A stretch of DNA of 64,000 bases from Escherichia phage vB_EcoM-ZQ1. Shown here piece after piece: positions 29,152 through 36,426 of the stretch. The stretch lies in the sequence record MW650886.1, one strand, 5' to 3'. The notes under the pieces were generated by a model. It was not told the origin of the DNA. It searched no databases and was given only the letters and a program-made list of their open reading frames with translations. Position numbers and translations under genes: made by a program. Each line of letters starts with the position of its first letter. Within the stretch, counting starts at the first letter, position 1.

Positions 29152-30576
29152 CTAGAATTTCCAATTATTGACTGTTTGGGCTTTCTGCTCATCGCTGGCA
29201 GCAGCTCCGGACTTGTTGAGGTCATGTTTGATGTGTACGTTTTCGACATATTTGGCCTCAGCCTCAGTCAGGTCCTTCTTAACTTCATTCCAGTCCAGGT
29301 CAAACAGGATCTGTTTGTCTTGGTCCATACCAAACAGGAATGATTTCAGCTTCTGCTTGTTGGCATAACGGTTCTTGAGTATTGAGGCTCGGGCTTTCTT
29401 GACCGCCGCCAGTTCGTCGGGAGCATAGAATGCCATGATGAAGTCGGCCACCTTCGGAATACCGATAGCATCTGCCAAATCACTGATTCCACCATCAGTG
29501 CTATTCTGATTCTCACGATTGAACTGCATACCAGTCCATACAGGGACATCAAACTCAAATCCCAGCGCACGAAACTCACGAGCCACAGACGTGTAATAGA
29601 CGTTCGTGTTCTGCATCAGGTGGGCAGGCAGGCGCGAGGAAGCAGCTTCGCCAAGATAGTCAATAACGATAACATCAGGAGCACGACCAGTTGCCTGGAT
29701 GTACTCAAGGATATCGCGGCGGAATAAACCCGTGTGTCCAGCACCGGAAGGATATTCCTTGATGACGATATCACCCTTGGGCGCACCATCTTGGCGACTG
29801 CGGAGCTTCTCTATCGTTGCAATATACTCGTGCCTTGTGAGTTTCTCTAAAGACTCAAAGTCGCGACGCATGATACGGGCATCAAGACGGTGTCGCCAGA
29901 CGTTCTCGGCCACTTCAAGGGTGAAGACAAAGACGTTCAGCCCCTGCTCCGAGTACCCTGCGGTCAGGTCAATCAGCGTTGTGGTCTTACCTGCGTTGAT
30001 CGCGCCTGTTACGATGTTCAGTGTCTTCTTACCAACGCCACCACGTGTCGCCTTATTGAATATCTCAACTGCGAACGGGATCTTGGCCTCGTTGGAGTTC
30101 ATGTGGTCATACTGCTCTGCCGCCATCTCCCAATAGATGTGACCGAGGTATGAATCAAACCGGATCGCCAGGGCTTCCTGCAACATGGTCGGGATGTTGT
30201 TCATCTCGTCCTTGCGCTTCTCGTCACCGTAGATGTTGACGGCAGTCTTGATTGCGTTGTGTACGGCCTTTTGCCGCGCCCAAGCCTCGGTTTCCTTCGC
30301 CAGCCACTCTTCATTGAAGGTGTTGTCGTTGATGTTCTCCAGGGCAGATACCGCCTGGTCAAACACATATTCGTTCAGCTTTGTCCGTTCAAGAATTATA
30401 GATAGTGCTTCGACAGACGGGCGGGCATTGTACTCTGAGGTATAACTGTCAATCAGACCAAAGATGACCTTTTCGCCTTCGTTGTCAAAATAATCGGCTT
30501 TCAGGTACGGCAGGATCTTTCTTTGGTAATCTTCATTGTAAATCAACTGTGAAAGCACGACAGATTCGAGTAACAT
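29152..30576 (-). CDS. replicative DNA helicase (T4 gp41-like, DnaB family)
   Basis: 474 aa; Walker A GAINAGKTT; size and downstream-of-uvsX position match T4 gene 41. Confidence 0.85.
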   Translation of the reverse strand: MLLESVVLSQLIYNEDYQRKILPYLKADYFDNEGEKVIFGLIDSYTSEYNARPSVEALSIILERTKLNEYVFDQAVSALENINDNTFNEEWLAKETEAWARQKAVHNAIKTAVNIYGDEKRKDEMNNIPTMLQEALAIRFDSYLGHIYWEMAAEQYDHMNSNEAKIPFAVEIFNKATRGGVGKKTLNIVTGAINAGKTTTLIDLTAGYSEQGLNVFVFTLEVAENVWRHRLDARIMRRDFESLEKLTRHEYIATIEKLRSRQDGAPKGDIVIKEYPSGAGHTGLFRRDILEYIQATGRAPDVIVIDYLGEAASSRLPAHLMQNTNVYYTSVAREFRALGFEFDVPVWTGMQFNRENQNSTDGGISDLADAIGIPKVADFIMAFYAPDELAAVKKARASILKNRYANKQKLKSFLFGMDQDKQILFDLDWNEVKKDLTEAEAKYVENVHIKHDLNKSGAAASDEQKAQTVNNWKF

Positions 30577-30582
30577 TGGCCA

Positions 30583-30912
30583 CTACCCCACCAAAAATTT
30601 ATTATATTCCTGAGCATTACGCTGCATGAGGTCTACAAGGATATCCCCTGACACCTCAGTGAACAAGTCATTTTCTTTCAAATTCACAAACATCAGACGC
30701 AATGGTTTCTTCAATATATCAGTCACGAAAGACAGGCGGGGTTCGCCGTCCACTTCGTTGATGGCCACCTTGCCGAACCTGAATTGAACACCACGGAATT
30801 TGCCAGAAGTGATCTTGATGATCGCCAGCTGATCAGCACCAGGGTCGATGATTGTGTAGTTATTGGGGGAGTCTCCTCCCCCTCCACTGTTATTCGCTTG
30901 TGTTAATAACAT
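30583..30912 (-). CDS. hypothetical protein in the position of T4 gene 40
   Basis: small ORF between uvsX and gp41; ORF-track start 30963 overlaps uvsX, a later ATG is more likely. Confidence 0.4.
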   Translation of the reverse strand: MLLTQANNSGGGGDSPNNYTIIDPGADQLAIIKITSGKFRGVQFRFGKVAINEVDGEPRLSFVTDILKKPLRLMFVNLKENDLFTEVSGDILVDLMQRNAQEYNKFLVG

Positions 30913-31975
30913 GGTCCATTTGCTCCAGCATGTTAGCAGGCATAACAGTACCGTTAGAAACACCGAACATTTTCTTCACGTCATCGGCGAAGTTGACATT
31001 CTCCAGCAGCGGATACCAGAAATCATCATCCATCTGACGCTTCTGATATTTCTTTTCCTTCTCAGGATCGAAACCACCCTTGGTTGTACGCACATACCAA
31101 CCGGAAGACGGCATATCAACATAACCCAGAGCACGAGCGATCTCAAGCAGGCCGCTCCAGCGATCAATACCGCCGTTGTACAGTACCGTCACAGGGAGCT
31201 TGGCTTTCTCTTTGACATGGCGACCTTTCATGATGCTTATGTTGAAGTTCCAGCCCAGCAGATCTTTGTCTTCCTTCACCTGAGAACGGGTGATAAACCA
31301 GATCAAGTTGGAGGATAAGAAGCCCTGCTTGCCGCCTTTGATGTTAGGCTCGGCATATTGGTTGCCGATCTCATCGTAATAGGAGTTGATCCAAACACAC
31401 ACGAGATTTTTGCTATTGATTTCAGGAGTCATGACACGCCAGAAGCTGTTGAGGGCACGGGCGCGGGTCATGTCTTGAGTGTCGTTCCCTTTGATCGCAT
31501 CTTCAACTTCCTTGGTGGAGGGAAGTTGGCTGATAGAGTCGATGAAGATTATAACATGGTCGCCTTTCTTGACTTCCTGTAGGATCTGCAGCAAGCGGAT
31601 CTTGGTCTGTTCAACGTTGTCGATCGGTACGTACAGGACGCGGTCCATGTCAATGCCCATAGAGGTCCAGTAATCAGCGTTGGCACCCTTTTCCGAGTCA
31701 GCAAATACACAGATAGCATCAGGGAACTTGTCCATATAAGCCTTGACATCGACCAGGCCGAACATCGTTTTGAAGGTACGGGAATCACCCACCATCATCT
31801 TGATACCGGAGATCAGGCCGCCGTCAATACGCCCAGACCATGCGATATCGATCAGGGGAATACCAGTAGAACAGATGATAGACGGTTCCAGAGCGTCGGA
31901 TTTGGACAGCACTGAAGCCTGGTCATCGTGTTTCTTAGCAACCTTCAGCATGCGATCCATTAATGAACTGGCCAT
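30890..31975 (-). CDS. uvsX: UvsX recombinase (RecA/Rad51 family)
   Basis: 361 aa; extended collinear similarity to T4 UvsX from recall (GIPLIDIAWSGRIDGGL..., ICVFADSEKG..., VIIFIDSISQL..., MTRARALNSFWR...). Confidence 0.9.
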   Translation of the reverse strand: MASSLMDRMLKVAKKHDDQASVLSKSDALEPSIICSTGIPLIDIAWSGRIDGGLISGIKMMVGDSRTFKTMFGLVDVKAYMDKFPDAICVFADSEKGANADYWTSMGIDMDRVLYVPIDNVEQTKIRLLQILQEVKKGDHVIIFIDSISQLPSTKEVEDAIKGNDTQDMTRARALNSFWRVMTPEINSKNLVCVWINSYYDEIGNQYAEPNIKGGKQGFLSSNLIWFITRSQVKEDKDLLGWNFNISIMKGRHVKEKAKLPVTVLYNGGIDRWSGLLEIARALGYVDMPSSGWYVRTTKGGFDPEKEKKYQKRQMDDDFWYPLLENVNFADDVKKMFGVSNGTVMPANMLEQMDHVINTSE

Positions 31976-32502
31976 TTCACTTCCTCTTTGTTGTTAATCG
32001 TCGTTAGTAAGTCTACACCCATAACCTTCTGGGACAAAATGTTAACCGCCTCTTGGATGCTCTTCAGGGACATTGTCTCAACAAGTGACGATGCGTCATT
32101 ATGCCGGTCGGTTAGGTACATATTGCGCAGATTGTTGTAGTTCGTGCGGTTGATGCACGCAGTGTTCAGTGCTATATTCAGGATATACATCATCTGTTCA
32201 ATGGTTATATCCTTTGGTATAGCGTGGATGTAATAGATCGAGCCTTCAAAATAGACGTCTACCAGTTCATCTGGTATCTTGGCCCCACCACCGGCATAAT
32301 CTTCGATCATCCTGAACAGAGACTCTGGTTGCTCGCTGGCGATCTTATGCGTAACAGTCGCCGAAAGACCGTCGCCCGGTTTAACAGGCCTGGTGTATTC
32401 GGTAAGGAATACATTATGTCCGCCGCCGATGATGTGCTCGGCGAATTTGGAGGATGCCTGAGCAGCGTTCTCCGCATGGTATGAAACGACGACTGTAAAC
32501 AT
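31960..32502 (-). CDS. hypothetical protein (in the position of T4 beta-glucosyltransferase, no recognisable similarity)
   Basis: 180-aa ORF coupled between the NTP-PPase-like gene and uvsX. Confidence 0.45.
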   Translation of the reverse strand: MFTVVVSYHAENAAQASSKFAEHIIGGGHNVFLTEYTRPVKPGDGLSATVTHKIASEQPESLFRMIEDYAGGGAKIPDELVDVYFEGSIYYIHAIPKDITIEQMMYILNIALNTACINRTNYNNLRNMYLTDRHNDASSLVETMSLKSIQEAVNILSQKVMGVDLLTTINNKEEVKWPVH

Positions 32503-33056
32503 TAGAACTCCAGGGTCAGAGGGGTTTCTGCGGACTTGTCGTAATCCGCACCACCAGAAGCACGCAGACGATTGCGATCGTTCTTGCGTTTGTGTGCCAG
32601 TATGTAAGTCTCAATGTCGATCTCCATATAAGAACACGCAGACGACAGGAAGAACATGAGAGTCTCAACGCAAGGATCGTTCATGAATTGCCCAAGGCGG
32701 TACGTAACATTGCGATGCCCTACAACACCCAAAGCAGATGGGGTGAATTCGCGATTACTAAGGACTTCAAATTCTTCTTCGATCTCACCTTTGGTGCGGT
32801 CCACAAGGATGAAGCACAACATGAAGTGTACCACGTCCACCAGCTCATAAACTGCGTTCGTATGGTCAAACCCGATGTCGTTGCCATAGACCTTCCAGTC
32901 ACGGGTGGTTTCATCAAGGAACTCTGCCCACTCACGATAGATAGAGTTGATGACTGCGTTCTGACTCCATACATTCTTCCACTCTTCCCCAAAGTAGGCC
33001 ACGTTAGTGGCCTTTTGGAGTTCGAGCAGGCTTTTGATATGTCCTGCTGTGATCAT
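32502..33056 (-). CDS. all-alpha NTP pyrophosphatase candidate (dimeric dUTPase/dCTPase-like)
   Basis: acidic helix motifs (FGEEWKNVW ... YREWAEFLDE); ATGA-coupled to dNMP kinase; family assignment tentative. Confidence 0.4.
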   Translation of the reverse strand: MITAGHIKSLLELQKATNVAYFGEEWKNVWSQNAVINSIYREWAEFLDETTRDWKVYGNDIGFDHTNAVYELVDVVHFMLCFILVDRTKGEIEEEFEVLSNREFTPSALGVVGHRNVTYRLGQFMNDPCVETLMFFLSSACSYMEIDIETYILAHKRKNDRNRLRASGGADYDKSAETPLTLEF

Positions 33057-33622
33057 TTACGTTCTCCGTAGAATTTAACGAACGGTTCCCAACCATCAAA
33101 TGGATTGAGGAATTCGTAGTCCACTTTCATTTGGTCAATGAAAGCCTCTATATCGTCCTCTATGATACCAGCACGGTCGGCCTTTGAAATACGGGTGATA
33201 GGGCATTTCGTACTCAGCGCCCATTCATATTCCTGAGGGGTACGCAGATCACTCACGATATAATGGACGTGGGGGTTCTGCTCTACCAGAGGAAGCTGGA
33301 AGCGCTTGAAGAATGCCAGGAACAGATCGGGTTGTACGTAACGCAAGCCCGTATCGCTGCCTAGATGAAGCCAGATCTGCCGTGGAGTTAAGCCCTTGGG
33401 ATTATCAGGGTGCACGTAAGGAACGTCCTTCACGGCATCCTCTACCTCCGCTGGGAGCCATGGGTAGATGTAGTTGGCTACACGGCGCAGTTCATCAGAG
33501 AAAGAAAGGCGCTGTATGTCCATATCACCCTGTAAGTGGTGGTAACTGATCAGGGACTCCAAACAGAAGTCCTTACCGGAGCGCTTGCGCCCCGTAAAGA
33601 ATTCAAGATTTGGGTACATCAT
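33053..33622 (-). CDS. deoxynucleoside monophosphate kinase (T4 gp1-like)
   Basis: N-terminal P-loop FFTGRKRSGKD resembles the T4 gp1 signature. Confidence 0.7.
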   Translation of the reverse strand: MMYPNLEFFTGRKRSGKDFCLESLISYHHLQGDMDIQRLSFSDELRRVANYIYPWLPAEVEDAVKDVPYVHPDNPKGLTPRQIWLHLGSDTGLRYVQPDLFLAFFKRFQLPLVEQNPHVHYIVSDLRTPQEYEWALSTKCPITRISKADRAGIIEDDIEAFIDQMKVDYEFLNPFDGWEPFVKFYGERK

Positions 33623-34665
33623 ACTACACCTTCCAGGAACTTAGGATCAATGATCTTGCGGTCAACCGGGGAATGGGTGAGCGCGGTGTTCAAGCCATGA
33701 TCCTGAATCAGGTCCAGGTTAATGAGCTTTTCGTTCAGTTTACAGTGCAGACAGTACGCCATCTGTACAATCAGGCCGCGATCCGCATCGTATTCCTTCA
33801 GGTGAGCAACCACAGTTTCCCACGGGCTACCGATATCACAGTGATGAAGCACACCAGTGAACAGATTGCGGATATGGTTCTGGTTGGTCACGTTCGTGAA
33901 GTGAATCATGGAGTTGATGAACCCAGCTTCTACTTTGGTGTCCTTCGTGATCTTTCCCAGCTGCTTCTGGCTGACTTCATTGTTGTAGTAATGAAGATTG
34001 TTAGAGAATAGCTTGTACTGACCGACATCAACATCCAGCACCCGAGCAATCACTTCCTGAAGAATAGAGAACTCAATGAAGTTAATTGAACTCATCCCCC
34101 ACAGAACATCCTGTGAGCGGTTGATGACCGTCAGGTTCAGACGACCTTCAACGATGGCGAACAACAGAGCCAGGTTACACACCATGTCCTTAGTCTTTGC
34201 TTCGCCGCTCTCGCTGAACTTCGCCAGACCAGCATCCGAATCTAGAGCCGGGTCATAGATGGTGAGGTACGCCTGGCGAGTGTTTGGGTTCTTGCGCAGG
34301 CGGTTGATAACGCTATCCAGCTGGCCATGGGCGTACAGACGCGGACCATAAGCAGCTCGCCATGTTACCCCATCATCCGAAAAGTTAGCAGCGCGAGGCA
34401 ATACGCGTGACAGGAACTTTATGTCGTTGCGACCTGACAACACCCAGAAGGTCTCGCCGATGGCAGCGATAGCCGATGAGTTGCGACCTTCAACGGAGAG
34501 CCAGCGGTCACGAATATCGGAAACAGTGATCGTCACACCATCAAGGAAGCGGGTGCTATCAGTATTGATTTCAGCATTACCAGGATCAGATTCGATCCCG
34601 AATTCACGGATAGCCAAGACAGCCTGCTTCAGCATGTCATTGTTGTTAATTGCTTTGATTTCCAT
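33619..34665 (-). CDS. thymidylate synthase / pyrimidine hydroxymethylase family enzyme with about 100-aa C-terminal extension
   Basis: ThyA-fold motifs: ETFWVLSGRND, RKNPNTRQAYLTIYDP, catalytic-Cys region DMVCNLALLF (VCN instead of PCH), NRSQDVLWGMSSINF (R-S-x-D ... N); occupies the T4 gene 42 position. Confidence 0.75.
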   Translation of the reverse strand: MEIKAINNNDMLKQAVLAIREFGIESDPGNAEINTDSTRFLDGVTITVSDIRDRWLSVEGRNSSAIAAIGETFWVLSGRNDIKFLSRVLPRAANFSDDGVTWRAAYGPRLYAHGQLDSVINRLRKNPNTRQAYLTIYDPALDSDAGLAKFSESGEAKTKDMVCNLALLFAIVEGRLNLTVINRSQDVLWGMSSINFIEFSILQEVIARVLDVDVGQYKLFSNNLHYYNNEVSQKQLGKITKDTKVEAGFINSMIHFTNVTNQNHIRNLFTGVLHHCDIGSPWETVVAHLKEYDADRGLIVQMAYCLHCKLNEKLINLDLIQDHGLNTALTHSPVDRKIIDPKFLEGVV

Positions 34666-35336
34666 CAGATACTCCCAAAATCACGACAGAGGAATGCCAT
34701 CACAGCCTGGTCTACTGTTAGGCCGTGAGACTTCATCATACCCGCAGCCACCGTAGGGAACAAGTCTTTATGTCGTTGACGATGGTCATGAACTCTCTCC
34801 CACTTCTCGACCACCAGACTTTCATTGAAGTCCACACCGCCGTTACGTGATTTAACACGAGCGATACACGTTTCAAGAGGAGTGTCCATAAAGAGCACAA
34901 CCAATTCACGTGGTGGGCGTGTCAGACGGGGGATCCAAGAACTCAATAATGTGGATGGAATGATACCTTCGAAAATCACATCATATTTCAAGTATTCTGG
35001 TTGGTCAGCAATAGACAACGCGAACAACATCTGCTCAGTGTCCTTCAGGGAATCAACCCCCTTGGACTTCGACTTGTCATATTTACCGATACAGACCACG
35101 TTGAACGAAGGACAGACAGTCAGCATGACCTTGCCGTTATGGGTCACGACATACGCCTGAGGATCCCTCTCCGCCAGCTGAGACGGCACAGTGGATTTAC
35201 CGCTACCATTGGAGCCTTTGACGTAGTAGATTTGCCCTCGTGCTGGGTAGATCCCCTTTACGACGGGTGGTTTAAAGAATGTGTGGACGGGGCGCTTCAT
35301 CAGCCCCTTCAGGGAGTAGGACATAAACTGCTCCAA
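34665..35336 (-). CDS. P-loop kinase of unassigned specificity
   Basis: Walker A YYVKGSNGSGKST; coupled by 1-nt overlap to the ThyA-family gene. Confidence 0.55.
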   Translation of the reverse strand: MEQFMSYSLKGLMKRPVHTFFKPPVVKGIYPARGQIYYVKGSNGSGKSTVPSQLAERDPQAYVVTHNGKVMLTVCPSFNVVCIGKYDKSKSKGVDSLKDTEQMLFALSIADQPEYLKYDVIFEGIIPSTLLSSWIPRLTRPPRELVVLFMDTPLETCIARVKSRNGGVDFNESLVVEKWERVHDHRQRHKDLFPTVAAGMMKSHGLTVDQAVMAFLCRDFGSI

Positions 35337-35340
35337 TAAA

Positions 35341-35365
35341 CAAAAGGAGCTGCTATTATAGCAGC
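35341..35365 (-). terminator. rho-independent terminator on the minus strand (gctgcta-TAA-tagcagc then TCCTTTT)
   Basis: hairpin read directly, downstream of the stop at 35400. Confidence 0.5.
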
Positions 35366-35399
35366 CCCTTCATCTATTGAACAGTTTCTGAACTTAAAT

Positions 35400-36236
35400 T
35401 TACACAGCTTTCGCTTCAGCCAGAGCCTGTGGAAGCCATTCATTGATCGCCTTAACCAGAGACTCAGCATCAGACTCTTTGATCTTCTGACGTTTGGTGA
35501 AGGACTTGCCGTTCACATACAGACTGAAGCCCCAGCCACCGGAAACGATAGGCGCAACGTCGACATACGTATTGGTGCGGGCGTGAAGGTTTTCAGGGTT
35601 AGCCAGTTCGGTGACCGGGAACTGGAACCAACGCATGTCTGGGTTCACGTAGCTCAGGAACACGCTGGGAACAACACCAGCTTCAATCGCCGCCAAGACC
35701 GGACCGTGATCAGAAGCGCGAGCCACGTCAACCATTTCCTCACGTTTGGTGTGACGGCGTTTACGCTCTACCAGCGCCGCCTGCGGGGTCAGGGTCTTAC
35801 CCTTCGATGCTTCTTTCAACATAGAAGACGCCAAGGAACCGATTTTCGCGTCGGACGGCTGATTGCCTTCTTCCAGCGCCGCGTTGACTGCATCTTCAAC
35901 CGCGTCTACCGGGGCGTCGGACACTGAGGCTTCACATGCATCGGCAGAGATCGGTGCTTCAGCATCAATAGTTTCAGCGACTTTCAGGGATACTTCAGCT
36001 TGGGCTTGCTCTTGGGCTTGCGCCAGAGCCTGCTGAGTTTCTTCCTTCTCTTCGGCGCTCAGACCTTCAATCAGTTCGAAGCCGTTGGCAGCCTGAAGAA
36101 CACCTTCAACCATACGGCGCAGGGTAACGTTTCCGATGATCAGACCTGCTTCTTTGATTTCAGCCTGAATAGCAGCAACGTCTTTGCCTTCAATTTCAAT
36201 TTTGGTTCCAGAATCCACATGAAGAATATATGACAT
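35400..36236 (-). CDS. hypothetical protein with acidic Ala/Glu-rich linker
   Basis: 278-aa ORF; no assignable domain. Confidence 0.5.
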   Translation of the reverse strand: MSYILHVDSGTKIEIEGKDVAAIQAEIKEAGLIIGNVTLRRMVEGVLQAANGFELIEGLSAEEKEETQQALAQAQEQAQAEVSLKVAETIDAEAPISADACEASVSDAPVDAVEDAVNAALEEGNQPSDAKIGSLASSMLKEASKGKTLTPQAALVERKRRHTKREEMVDVARASDHGPVLAAIEAGVVPSVFLSYVNPDMRWFQFPVTELANPENLHARTNTYVDVAPIVSGGWGFSLYVNGKSFTKRQKIKESDAESLVKAINEWLPQALAEAKAV

Positions 36237-36307
36237 AATAAAAAACCCTTTCGTTATTAAGACCGTATCCGCGGCATATTGTTGTTCTGACTGTGTAGTG
36301 AGAACAT

Positions 36308-36335
36308 AATATACTGCATTTTCATAGATGTAAAC
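36308..36335 (-). promoter_or_regulatory. T4 early-type promoter candidate (GTTTAC -35, 16-nt spacer, TATATT -10) on the minus strand
   Basis: hexamers read on the reverse complement, about 70 nt upstream of the start at 36236 in an AT-rich region. Confidence 0.4.
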
Positions 36336-36426
36336 TACTTTTTATTGAAAAGAAAGTTAACACCTTAGTGTTATAAGGTGCGCGACCAAGCGGAGCGCGA
36401 ACTTGCGTGAATATTAACTTTCTACG

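What the first reader, a model, noticed from the sequence alone, without database searches (positions are those of the whole stretch)
33619..34665. Divergent thymidylate-synthase-fold enzyme with altered catalytic motif and C-terminal extension
The ThyA core is recognisable, but the catalytic cysteine lies in VCN rather than the PCH of thymidylate synthases or the MCT I recall for T4 gp42. The specificity region reads RSQDVLWGMSSINF, so an Asn (uracil-type) rather than an Asp (cytosine-type) appears to occupy the base-recognition position after a one-residue insertion. About 100 extra C-terminal residues have no counterpart in TS. Together this points to a dUMP-directed hydroxymethylase or a novel activity.
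Basis: partly seen in the sequence, partly recalled or inferred. Interest (0 to 1): 0.75.

Follow-up and report, generated by a model that had tools for sequence, protein, structure and literature searches.

The report
Phage dUMP hydroxymethylase, mislabelled thymidylate synthase
This gene is the already-recognised enzyme that ViI-like (Ackermannviridae) phages use to turn dUMP into 5-hydroxymethyl-dUMP, the first step towards their modified thymine; it is ordinary for this phage family, though databases usually label it "thymidylate synthase".

Summary
It is not a novel enzyme. The window is an Agtrevirus-like Ackermannviridae phage, and the protein is 100% identical to one in Escherichia phage YX22 and 77% identical to Salmonella phage ViI Vi01_060c.

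It sits between a 5-hmdU DNA kinase (Pfam HMUDK, 1.6e-108) and a dNMP kinase, exactly as in ViI. Kutter 2011 and Lee 2018 had already assigned this gene in CBA120, ViI and AG3 as a dUMP hydroxymethyltransferase.

Three published diagnostic positions read:
- Asn195 (E. coli TS N177): uracil rather than cytosine.
- Asp160 (three residues before Cys163; TS L143): hydroxymethyl rather than methyl.
- Asp186 (TS D169): folate-type rather than flavin-type.

Activity is inferred, not assayed. Interest is low: the main value is correcting the annotation.

The parts
33619..34665 (-). dUMP hydroxymethylase gene (348 aa; thymidylate-synthase superfamily). Orthologue of ViI Vi01_060c / orf00066 ('dU hmt').
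   Evidence: ORF. PF00303 at 1.1e-15 and PHROG 3676 at 4e-183. 100% aa identity to YX22 and 77% to ViI Vi01_060c. AF2 model pLDDT 94.6.
34174..34188 (-). Active-site strand D160-M-V-C163-N164. Cys163 is the nucleophile. Asp160 sits three residues upstream, at the position of T4dCH Asp145 and E. coli TS Leu143.
   Evidence: C163 and D160 are invariant and N164 is at least 90% conserved in 75 homologues. The role of the Asp is taken from PMC6400193 and PMC13326640.
34078..34119 (-). R183-S-Q-D186-V-L-W-G-M-S-S-I-N195-F. Arg183 and Ser184 bind phosphate and deoxyribose, Asp186 (= TS D169) is the folate-type residue, and Asn195 (= TS N177) is the uracil-specificity residue.
   Evidence: R183, D186, G190 and N195 are invariant in A2.
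34348..34455 (-). Segment from Glu71 (= TS E58, activates CH2-THF) to Tyr106 (= TS Y94, C5 proton abstraction). It includes the clade motif F95-S-D-D-G99, which replaces the TS 'IWDEWAD' folate and solvent-shielding tryptophans.
   Evidence: E71, W74, S96, D97 and Y106 are invariant.
34195..34239 (-). Variable loop and short helix (residues 143-157) inserted before the catalytic strand, relative to SPO1 gp29, MilA and TS.
   Evidence: A loop of similar length occurs in many non-Ackermannviridae homologues, so it is not lineage-unique.
33622..33960 (-). C-terminal helical domain (residues 236-348; helices 262-278, 282-290, 298-310, 323-331, 335-338). It replaces the TS C-terminal tail and resembles MilA helices alpha9-alpha13.
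34665..35336 (-). 5-hmdU DNA kinase (5-HMUDK), orthologue of ViI gp67. Its stop codon overlaps the hydroxymethylase ATG by 1 nt. The true start is probably the ATG at 35324.
   Evidence: PF18748 at 1.6e-108. 87.7% identity to ViI gp67 over 35324..34668. ViI gp67 activity was shown in PMC8989533. Junction sequence.
33053..33622 (-). dNMP kinase (predicted 5-hmdUMP kinase). Its start overlaps the hydroxymethylase stop (ATGA).
   Evidence: PHROG 139 at 1.2e-47. Junction. ViI 'dnk' Vi01_059c lies in the same position.
32502..33056 (-). All-alpha dUTPase_2 / MazG-type NTP pyrophosphohydrolase. Predicted to supply dUMP and possibly to deplete dTTP.
   Evidence: PF08761 at 5.8e-9 and PHROG 173 at 5.8e-40. 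The dTTPase idea comes from PMC3184105 and is inference.

Best explanation
The gene encodes the Ackermannviridae deoxyuridylate (dUMP) 5-hydroxymethyltransferase, a folate-dependent enzyme of the thymidylate-synthase superfamily.

**Inferred mechanism** (by homology to TS and T4 dCMP hydroxymethylase):
1. Cys163 adds to C6 of dUMP, which is held by Arg183, Ser184, Arg130', His225, Tyr227 and Asn195.
2. C5 attacks the iminium form of 5,10-methylene-THF, which is activated through Glu71.
3. Tyr106 and a water remove the C5 proton, and THF is eliminated, leaving an exocyclic methylene.
4. No hydride is transferred. A water activated by Asp160 adds to the methylene instead, giving 5-hydroxymethyl-dUMP plus THF.

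**Inferred pathway context:**
- The adjacent dNMP kinase and the host NDP kinase raise the product to 5-hmdUTP.
- The phage polymerase incorporates it into DNA.
- The adjacent 5-hmdU DNA kinase phosphorylates it in the DNA.
- A serine:DNA transferase and a PLP decarboxylase, encoded outside the window, convert it to 5-(2-aminoethoxy)methyl-dU.

**What is shown here:** sequence, fold, diagnostic residues, synteny and orthology. Catalysis itself is inferred.
For: **Orthology and synteny**
- The window is 98% nt identical to Aglimvirinae phages and 91.7% to Shigella phage Ag3.
- The gene order UvsX / ACT / NTP-PPase / dNMP kinase / TS-homologue / 5-HMUDK is identical to ViI Vi01_056c-061c.
- ViI gp67, whose orthologue is the window's neighbouring gene (87.7% identity), is an experimentally shown 5-hmdU DNA kinase (PMC8989533).

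**Prior assignment in the literature**
- PMC3184105 places the CBA120, ViI and AG3 'TS' with the dUMP hydroxymethylases of SPO1, phiW-14 and YuA. It also shows that CBA120 does not incorporate 3H-thymidine.
- PMC5889632 labels this gene 'dU hmt' next to 5-HMUDK and lists AG3 and SKML-39.

**Diagnostic residues**
- Asn195 = TS N177, Asp160 = TS L143 / T4dCH D145, and Asp186 = TS D169. All are invariant in 75 homologues.
- The rules come from PMC6400193 and PMC13326640.
- Arg130 and Ser184 are the deoxyribose-type residues, where MilA has Lys and Ala.

**Similarity ranking (BLASTP)**
- PaMx11-like phage 3e-42, SP10 gp188 2e-33, SPO1L4 orthologue of gp29 8e-33, E. coli ThyA 2e-13, T4 gp42 no hit. 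SPO1 gp29 itself gave 4e-30 by tblastn against the window.
- NCBIfam TS equivalog models score 58 bits against cut-offs of 327 or more for the best models.

**Structure**

**Rest of the pathway**
- The closest relative, YX22, carries the remaining genes: PLP enzyme (91.6% to ViI gp226), ADDT (PF18724, 89.8% to gp247) and HMUD2 (PF18747).
Against: - No enzyme of the Ackermannviridae clade appears to have been assayed. The papers I read use synteny and phylogeny only.
- No dUMP hydroxymethylase structure is in the PDB, so residue roles are transferred from T4 dCMP hydroxymethylase, MilA and TS.
- The Ser of the T4dCH 'S-x-Y' water-binding signature is Ala104 here. It is also Ala in SPO1 gp29, and T4 S94A keeps about 25% activity.
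- Pro before the Cys is replaced by Val or Ile in this lineage only.
- About 60% of thymines in ViI-type virion DNA are unmodified and their origin is unresolved. The nucleotide flux through this enzyme is therefore not fully understood.
Confidence: 0.9

Rival explanations
1. It is a canonical thymidylate synthase (dUMP to dTMP), as most GenBank, RefSeq and PHROG annotations say.
For: It matches Pfam PF00303 and the PHROG 'thymidylate synthase' families. Asn is at the uracil position. About 60% of T in ViI-type DNA is plain thymine.
Against: - NCBIfam TS equivalog models score 58 bits against a cut-off of 327.
- TS Leu143 is Asp160, and the P-C-H motif is V-C-N.
- The TS 'IWDEWAD' tryptophans are absent.
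- The TS C-terminal tail that closes over folate is replaced by a helical domain.
- It is closer to SPO1 gp29 than to ThyA.
- CBA120 does not incorporate 3H-thymidine.
Confidence: 0.03
2. It is a cytosine-directed hydroxymethylase, like T4 gp42 (dCMP) or MilA (CMP).
For: The best solved-structure match by sequence and by fold is MilA. The Asp three residues before the Cys is shared with these enzymes.
Against: - The specificity residue is Asn195, invariant in 75 homologues, where T4 gp42 and MilA have Asp.
- Arg130 and Ser184 are the deoxyribose type, not MilA's Lys133 and Ala176.
- There is no BLASTP hit to T4 gp42.
- ViI-type DNA has a modified T, not a modified C.
Confidence: 0.02
3. It carries out a different C5 chemistry. 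Examples are a flavin-dependent 5-hydroxylase like the RB69 and HY126 5hodCMP synthases, or direct formation of a larger adduct.
Against: - The diagnostic D169N substitution is absent: Asp186 is invariant.
- The downstream enzymes encoded next door, and in the relative YX22, act on 5-hmdU.
- The final base 5-NeOmdU retains the C5 methylene carbon.
Confidence: 0.03

Closest known systems
Salmonella phage ViI Vi01_060c (orf00066, 'dU hmt') and its CBA120 and AG3 orthologues (Kutter 2011 PMC3184105; Lee 2018 PMC5889632)
   Same: - 77% identity over the full length (88% in the core).
- Same length and the same V/I-C-N and SSINF motifs.
- Same neighbours and gene order, including 5-HMUDK gp67.
   Different: Only ordinary orthologue divergence. 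The C-terminal domain is 52% identical. Neither protein has been assayed directly.
Bacillus phage SPO1 gp29, the biochemically characterised dUMP hydroxymethylase (Wilhelm & Ruger 1992, cited in PMC8989533), and SP10 gp188
   Same: - 33-34% identity over the catalytic core.
- The K-D-x-x-C-N strand, the FSDDG motif, Asn at the specificity position (with the same one-residue insertion in SPO1), and the H-x-Y motif.
- A long C-terminal domain after the core.
   Different: - gp29 is 383 aa and has P-C-N rather than V-C-N.
- It lacks the 143-157 loop.
- Its C-terminal domain shows no detectable sequence similarity.
- SPO1 leaves 5-hmdU unmodified in its DNA, whereas Ackermannviridae process it further.
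MilA, CMP 5-hydroxymethylase of Streptomyces rimofaciens (PDB 5jnh / 5b6d; PMC5175136)
   Same: - Asp three residues before the Cys.
- It makes a hydroxymethyl product rather than a methyl product.
   Different: - About 21% identity.
- MilA has Asp186 (cytosine) and Lys133/Ala176 (ribose), where this protein has Asn195 and Arg130/Ser184.
- MilA works in antibiotic biosynthesis, not DNA precursor synthesis.
T4 gp42 dCMP hydroxymethylase (PDB 1b5e / 6l18; PMC6400193)
   Different: Asp179 (cytosine) against Asn195. gp42 is 246 aa with almost no C-terminal tail. There is no BLASTP-detectable similarity.
E. coli ThyA thymidylate synthase
   Different: - Leu143 is replaced by Asp160, and P-C-H by V-C-N.
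- The Trp80/Trp83 region is absent.
- The C-terminal tail is replaced by a helical domain.
- The product is predicted to be hydroxymethyl rather than methyl, with THF rather than DHF released.

Membership tests
Phage dUMP hydroxymethylase (deoxyuridylate hydroxymethyltransferase; SPO1 gp29 type) | Thymidylate-synthase fold with the conserved nucleophilic Cys, the Glu, the Tyr and the Arg/Ser/His/Tyr nucleotide ligands | tested here: met
   [not shown]
Phage dUMP hydroxymethylase (deoxyuridylate hydroxymethyltransferase; SPO1 gp29 type) | Asn (not Asp) at the pyrimidine-specificity position (E. coli TS N177) | tested here: met
   Asn195 aligns with N177, and T4 gp42 has Asp in that column. It is invariant in 75 homologues.
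Phage dUMP hydroxymethylase (deoxyuridylate hydroxymethyltransferase; SPO1 gp29 type) | Acidic residue three positions before the catalytic Cys (TS L143 to D/E), the published hydroxymethylase signature | tested here: met
   Asp160-x-x-Cys163, invariant in 75 homologues. The rule comes from PMC6400193 and PMC13326640.
Phage dUMP hydroxymethylase (deoxyuridylate hydroxymethyltransferase; SPO1 gp29 type) | Ser-x-Tyr water-binding pair (T4dCH Ser94/Tyr96) | tested here: inconclusive
   Tyr106 is present, but the Ser position is Ala104. It is also Ala in SPO1 gp29 and SP10 gp188. The signature was defined on dCMP enzymes.
Phage dUMP hydroxymethylase (deoxyuridylate hydroxymethyltransferase; SPO1 gp29 type) | Closer to characterised dUMP hydroxymethylases than to TS or dCMP hydroxymethylase | tested here: met
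   BLASTP: SPO1L4 orthologue of gp29 8e-33, SP10 gp188 2e-33, E. coli ThyA 2e-13, T4 gp42 no hit. SPO1 gp29 itself gives 4e-30 by tblastn against the window.
Phage dUMP hydroxymethylase (deoxyuridylate hydroxymethyltransferase; SPO1 gp29 type) | Genomic association with enzymes that use 5-hmdU(MP) | tested here: met
   The gene overlaps the 5-HMUDK gene (PF18748, 1.6e-108) upstream and the dNMP kinase gene downstream.
Phage dUMP hydroxymethylase (deoxyuridylate hydroxymethyltransferase; SPO1 gp29 type) | Catalyses dUMP + CH2-THF + H2O to 5-hmdUMP + THF | not testable with these tools
   This needs an enzyme assay.
Canonical thymidylate synthase ThyA | Scores above the curated equivalog cut-off of the NCBIfam TS models | tested here: not met
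   Best score is 57.8 bits against a cut-off of 327.
Canonical thymidylate synthase ThyA | Hydrophobic Leu143, the P-C-H motif, Trp80/Trp83, and a C-terminal tail that seals the folate site | tested here: not met
   Asp160 and V-C-N are present instead. 'PRAANFSDDG' stands in place of 'VTIWDEWADE'. A helical domain replaces the tail.
dCMP / CMP hydroxymethylase (T4 gp42, MilA) | Asp at the specificity position (T4 D179, MilA D186). For MilA also Lys133/Ala176. | tested here: not met
   Asn195, Arg130 and Ser184 are present instead.
Flavin-dependent 5-hydroxy-dCMP synthase (RB69 gp48 type) | Asn at E. coli TS D169 together with Asp at N177 | tested here: not met
   Asp186 and Asn195 are both invariant.

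The most novel reading that the evidence does not exclude
The fast-evolving C-terminal five-helix domain may be more than a folding aid. It is 52% identical to ViI against 88% for the core, and it is present in every member of the dUMP hydroxymethylase/MilA clade but not alignable by sequence between clades. It could be a lineage-specific docking module. It would tether the hydroxymethylase to the translationally coupled dNMP kinase and 5-hmdU DNA kinase, or to the replisome, channelling 5-hmdU nucleotides much as T4 gp42 works within the T4 dNTP-synthetase complex. Nothing in my evidence tests this.
Probability: 0.12. Interest if true: 0.4.

Novelty: already known. Interest (0 to 1): 0.15.

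Why it matters
The practical value is annotation. Most of the phage records listed call this gene 'thymidylate synthase'. Several RefSeq records and PHROG 800 call its neighbour, the 5-hmdU DNA kinase, 'terminase small subunit'. Both labels hide the fact that these therapeutic-candidate phages carry hypermodified thymine, which blocks many restriction enzymes.

Two gaps remain. No dUMP hydroxymethylase has a solved structure, and no Ackermannviridae enzyme appears to have been assayed. The confident model and the residue map (Cys163, Asp160, Asn195, Asp186, Glu71, Tyr106) therefore give a ready mutagenesis plan. None of this changes current understanding.

Tried and rejected
- **C-terminal domain homology by sequence.** I ran profile-profile hhalign between the C-terminal domains of the Ackermannviridae group and the other homologues. 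The result was E 0.023, probability 2%, which is inconclusive. BLASTP of the C-terminal 113 residues found only ViI. The link to MilA therefore rests on structure alone.
- **Second TS-family gene or other pathway genes in the window.** tblastn with E. coli ThyA, T4 gp42 and ViI gp226, gp243 and gp247 found none. Those pathway genes lie outside the window and were found in the relative YX22.
- **Promoter and terminator scan of 30500-37600.** Counts were not above the shuffled expectation (11 against 8.7±2.5; 4 against 6.4±2.7), so I make no operon-boundary claim.
- **Bifunctional TS/hydroxymethylase idea.** I considered this as an explanation for the 60% unmodified T. I rejected it as unlikely because Asp160 replaces the water-excluding Leu, the TS tail is absent, and CBA120 excludes labelled thymidine.
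- **Papers not held.** The EcoSal review (PMC11163837) and the Viunalikevirus paper (PMC4174289) were not available.
- **SPO1 gene 29.** My first coordinate guess missed it. It was found on the second try.

Full report
**Observation.** The minus-strand ORF at 33619..34665 encodes 348 aa.
- It matches Pfam Thymidylat_synt (PF00303) at 1.1e-15, residues 67-235 to profile positions 54-219 of 266.
- It matches PHROG 3676 over its full length at 4e-183.
- The quoted strings are present: V-C-N at residues 162-164 and RSQDVLWGMSSINF at 183-196.
- In a reference alignment, Cys163 falls in the invariant catalytic-Cys column.
- Asn195 aligns with E. coli Asn177 after a one-residue insertion, while T4 gp42 has Asp in that column.
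- After the conserved H-x-Y motif the protein has 121 residues, against 55 in E. coli TS and 28 in T4 gp42.

The extension is about 66 residues longer than TS rather than about 100, although the whole tail differs in fold.

**Where the window comes from.**
- The 5-kb region is 98% nt identical to Aglimvirinae (Agtrevirus-like) Ackermannviridae phages (fGh-Ecl02, RPN242, YX22, AV101).
- It is 91.7% identical to Shigella phage Ag3.
- The protein is 100% identical to a YX22 protein.
- It is 77% identical to Salmonella phage ViI Vi01_060c.

**Neighbourhood.** On the same strand, with overlapping stop and start codons, lie these genes:

| Coordinates | Product | Evidence |
|---|---|---|
| 34665-35336 | 5-hmdU DNA kinase | PF18748, 1.6e-108 |
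| 33619-34665 | the TS homologue | see above |
| 33053-33622 | dNMP kinase | PHROG 139, 1.2e-47 |
| 32502-33056 | dUTPase_2/MazG-type NTP pyrophosphohydrolase | PF08761, PHROG 173 |
| 31960-32502 | ACT_phage protein | PF24021 |
| 30890-31975 | UvsX | ViI uvsX Vi01_056c |

- ViI has the identical order, Vi01_056c to 061c.
- Vi01_061c (YP_004327432) is gp67, which was shown experimentally to phosphorylate 5-hmdU in DNA (PMC8989533).
- The window's copy is 87.7% identical to gp67.
- The window holds only one TS-family gene.

**What was already published.**
- Kutter et al. [quoted passage not shown] It clusters with the dUMP hydroxymethylases of SPO1, phiW-14 and YuA, and CBA120 does not incorporate 3H-thymidine.
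- Lee et al. 2018 (PMC5889632) list AG3 and SKML-39 among the ViI-like phages. They label this gene 'dUMP hydroxymethyltransferase (dU hmt)' next to 5-HMUDK.
- The same paper shows that about 40% of T in ViI-type DNA is 5-(2-aminoethoxy)methyl-dU.
- Lee et al. 2021 (PMC8989533) reconstituted the later steps: gp67/gp243 kinases, the gp247 serine:DNA transferase and the gp226 PLP decarboxylase.
- The closest relative, YX22, encodes all three later enzymes: 91.6% to gp226, 89.8% to gp247 (PF18724 ADDT), and an HMUD2 (PF18747) protein.

**Diagnostic residues.** Three positions, in E. coli TS numbering, have been proposed to classify TS-superfamily enzymes.

| E. coli TS position | Rule | This protein |
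|---|---|---|
| N177 | Asn = uracil, Asp = cytosine | Asn195 |
| L143 (three before the Cys) | hydrophobic = methyl product, Asp/Glu = hydroxymethyl product | Asp160 |
| D169 | Asp = folate enzymes, Asn = flavin-dependent 5-hydroxylases | Asp186 |

- The rules come from PMC6400193 and PMC13326640.
- All three residues are invariant in a 75-sequence alignment that includes the SPO1L4 orthologue of SPO1 gp29, SP10 gp188 and a PaMx11-like phage. This is the dUMP / hydroxymethyl / folate combination.
- Arg130 and Ser184 are the deoxyribose-type residues, where MilA has Lys133 and Ala176.
- The TS region 'VTIWDEWADE', with its two solvent- and folate-shielding tryptophans, is replaced by 'PRAANFSDDG'. 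FSDDG is a clade motif.
- One feature of the T4 dCMP-hydroxymethylase signature is not matched: the Ser of S-x-Y is Ala104. It is also Ala in SPO1 gp29.
- The 'altered' C-N after the cysteine is the norm in this clade (P-C-N in SPO1, SP10 and PaMx11-like phages). Only the Val or Ile before the Cys is specific to this lineage.

**Similarity ranking.**
- BLASTP E-values are 3e-42 (PaMx11-like), 2e-33 (SP10 gp188), 8e-33 (SPO1L4 orthologue of gp29) and 2e-13 (E. coli ThyA). T4 gp42 gives no hit.
- SPO1 gene 29 itself, annotated as dUMP hydroxymethylase, hits the window at 4e-30 by tblastn.
- NCBIfam TS equivalog models score at most 57.8 bits against a cut-off of 327.

**Structure and the C-terminal extension.**
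- An AlphaFold2 model built from the 75-sequence alignment is confident throughout: pLDDT 94.6, pTM 0.93.
- Residues 236-348 form helices at 262-278, 282-290, 298-310, 323-331 and 335-338.
[quoted passage not shown] The domain sits away from the active site, and truncations are insoluble (PMC5175136).
- All 75 homologues carry 87-188 residues after the core, so the extension is a clade feature.
- At sequence level the tails of different sub-clades cannot be aligned reliably (hhalign E 0.023). Within Ackermannviridae the tail evolves faster than the core: 52% against 88% identity to ViI.
- The loop at residues 143-157 before the catalytic strand varies in length across the clade and is not unique to this lineage.

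**Mechanism (inferred by homology).**
1. Cys163 adds to C6 of dUMP.
2. C5 attacks the iminium form of CH2-THF, activated through Glu71.
3. Tyr106 and a water remove the C5 proton, and THF leaves, giving an exocyclic methylene.
4. A water activated by Asp160 adds to the methylene, giving 5-hmdUMP and THF.
5. The adjacent kinase and host NDK produce 5-hmdUTP for the phage polymerase.
6. The adjacent 5-HMUDK starts the post-replicative conversion to 5-NeOmdU.

**Verdict.** However, it is the known dUMP hydroxymethyltransferase of ViI-like phages and is identical to a deposited sequence.

Remaining unknowns:
- There is no direct assay of this lineage's enzyme.
- There is no solved dUMP hydroxymethylase structure.
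- The role of the C-terminal domain is unknown.
- The origin of the unmodified thymine in ViI-type DNA is unresolved.

Noticed in passing
window 34665-35336 (-): The 5-hmdU DNA kinase orthologue (PF18748, 1.6e-108) is annotated 'terminase small subunit' in several RefSeq records (ViI, Ag3, Det7, SKML-39) and in PHROG 800, which looks like a propagated mis-annotation. The mechanical ORF starts at a TTG (35336), but the ViI gp67 alignment and the AV101 annotation point to the ATG at 35324.
   Followed up: partly
window 35343-35371 (-): A perfect-looking 13-bp-stem hairpin (GAAGGGGCTGCTAT AAT AGCAGCTCCTTT) followed by a T-rich stretch. It lies in the 63-bp gap between the upstream unknown ORF (35400-36236) and the kinase gene. 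It may be a terminator or attenuator, or an RNA-processing site, at the head of the nucleotide-metabolism gene run.
   Followed up: no
L011 (Escherichia phage YX22) 42436-44034 (+): The second 5-hmdU DNA kinase (HMUD2, PF18747) is a 532-aa protein in this Agtrevirus-like lineage. It has a roughly 235-residue N-terminal region with no Pfam match, and the kinase part is only 47% identical to ViI gp243 (304 aa). The extra domain is uncharacterised.
   Followed up: partly
metagenomic proteins P0046, P0050, P0073 and about 40 others: Many homologues of this hydroxymethylase are 470-590 aa long. They have the TS-like core at the N-terminus and 250-350 further residues without any Pfam match. They may be fusions to an unknown partner domain.
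   Followed up: partly
window 31960-32502 (-): A 180-aa 'Phage ACT-like domain' protein (PF24021, 3e-78; PHROG 3839, unknown function) is translationally coupled between the NTP pyrophosphohydrolase and UvsX. It is conserved at the same place in ViI (Vi01_057c). ACT domains usually bind small-molecule effectors, so it might regulate the nucleotide enzymes.
   Followed up: no
window 35400-36236 (-) and 36723-37472 (-): Two conserved proteins of unknown function (PHROG 3905, with an Ala/Glu-rich acidic middle region; PHROG 4253) lie immediately upstream of the modification genes. Neither has a Pfam match.
   Followed up: no
[not shown]
   Followed up: yes
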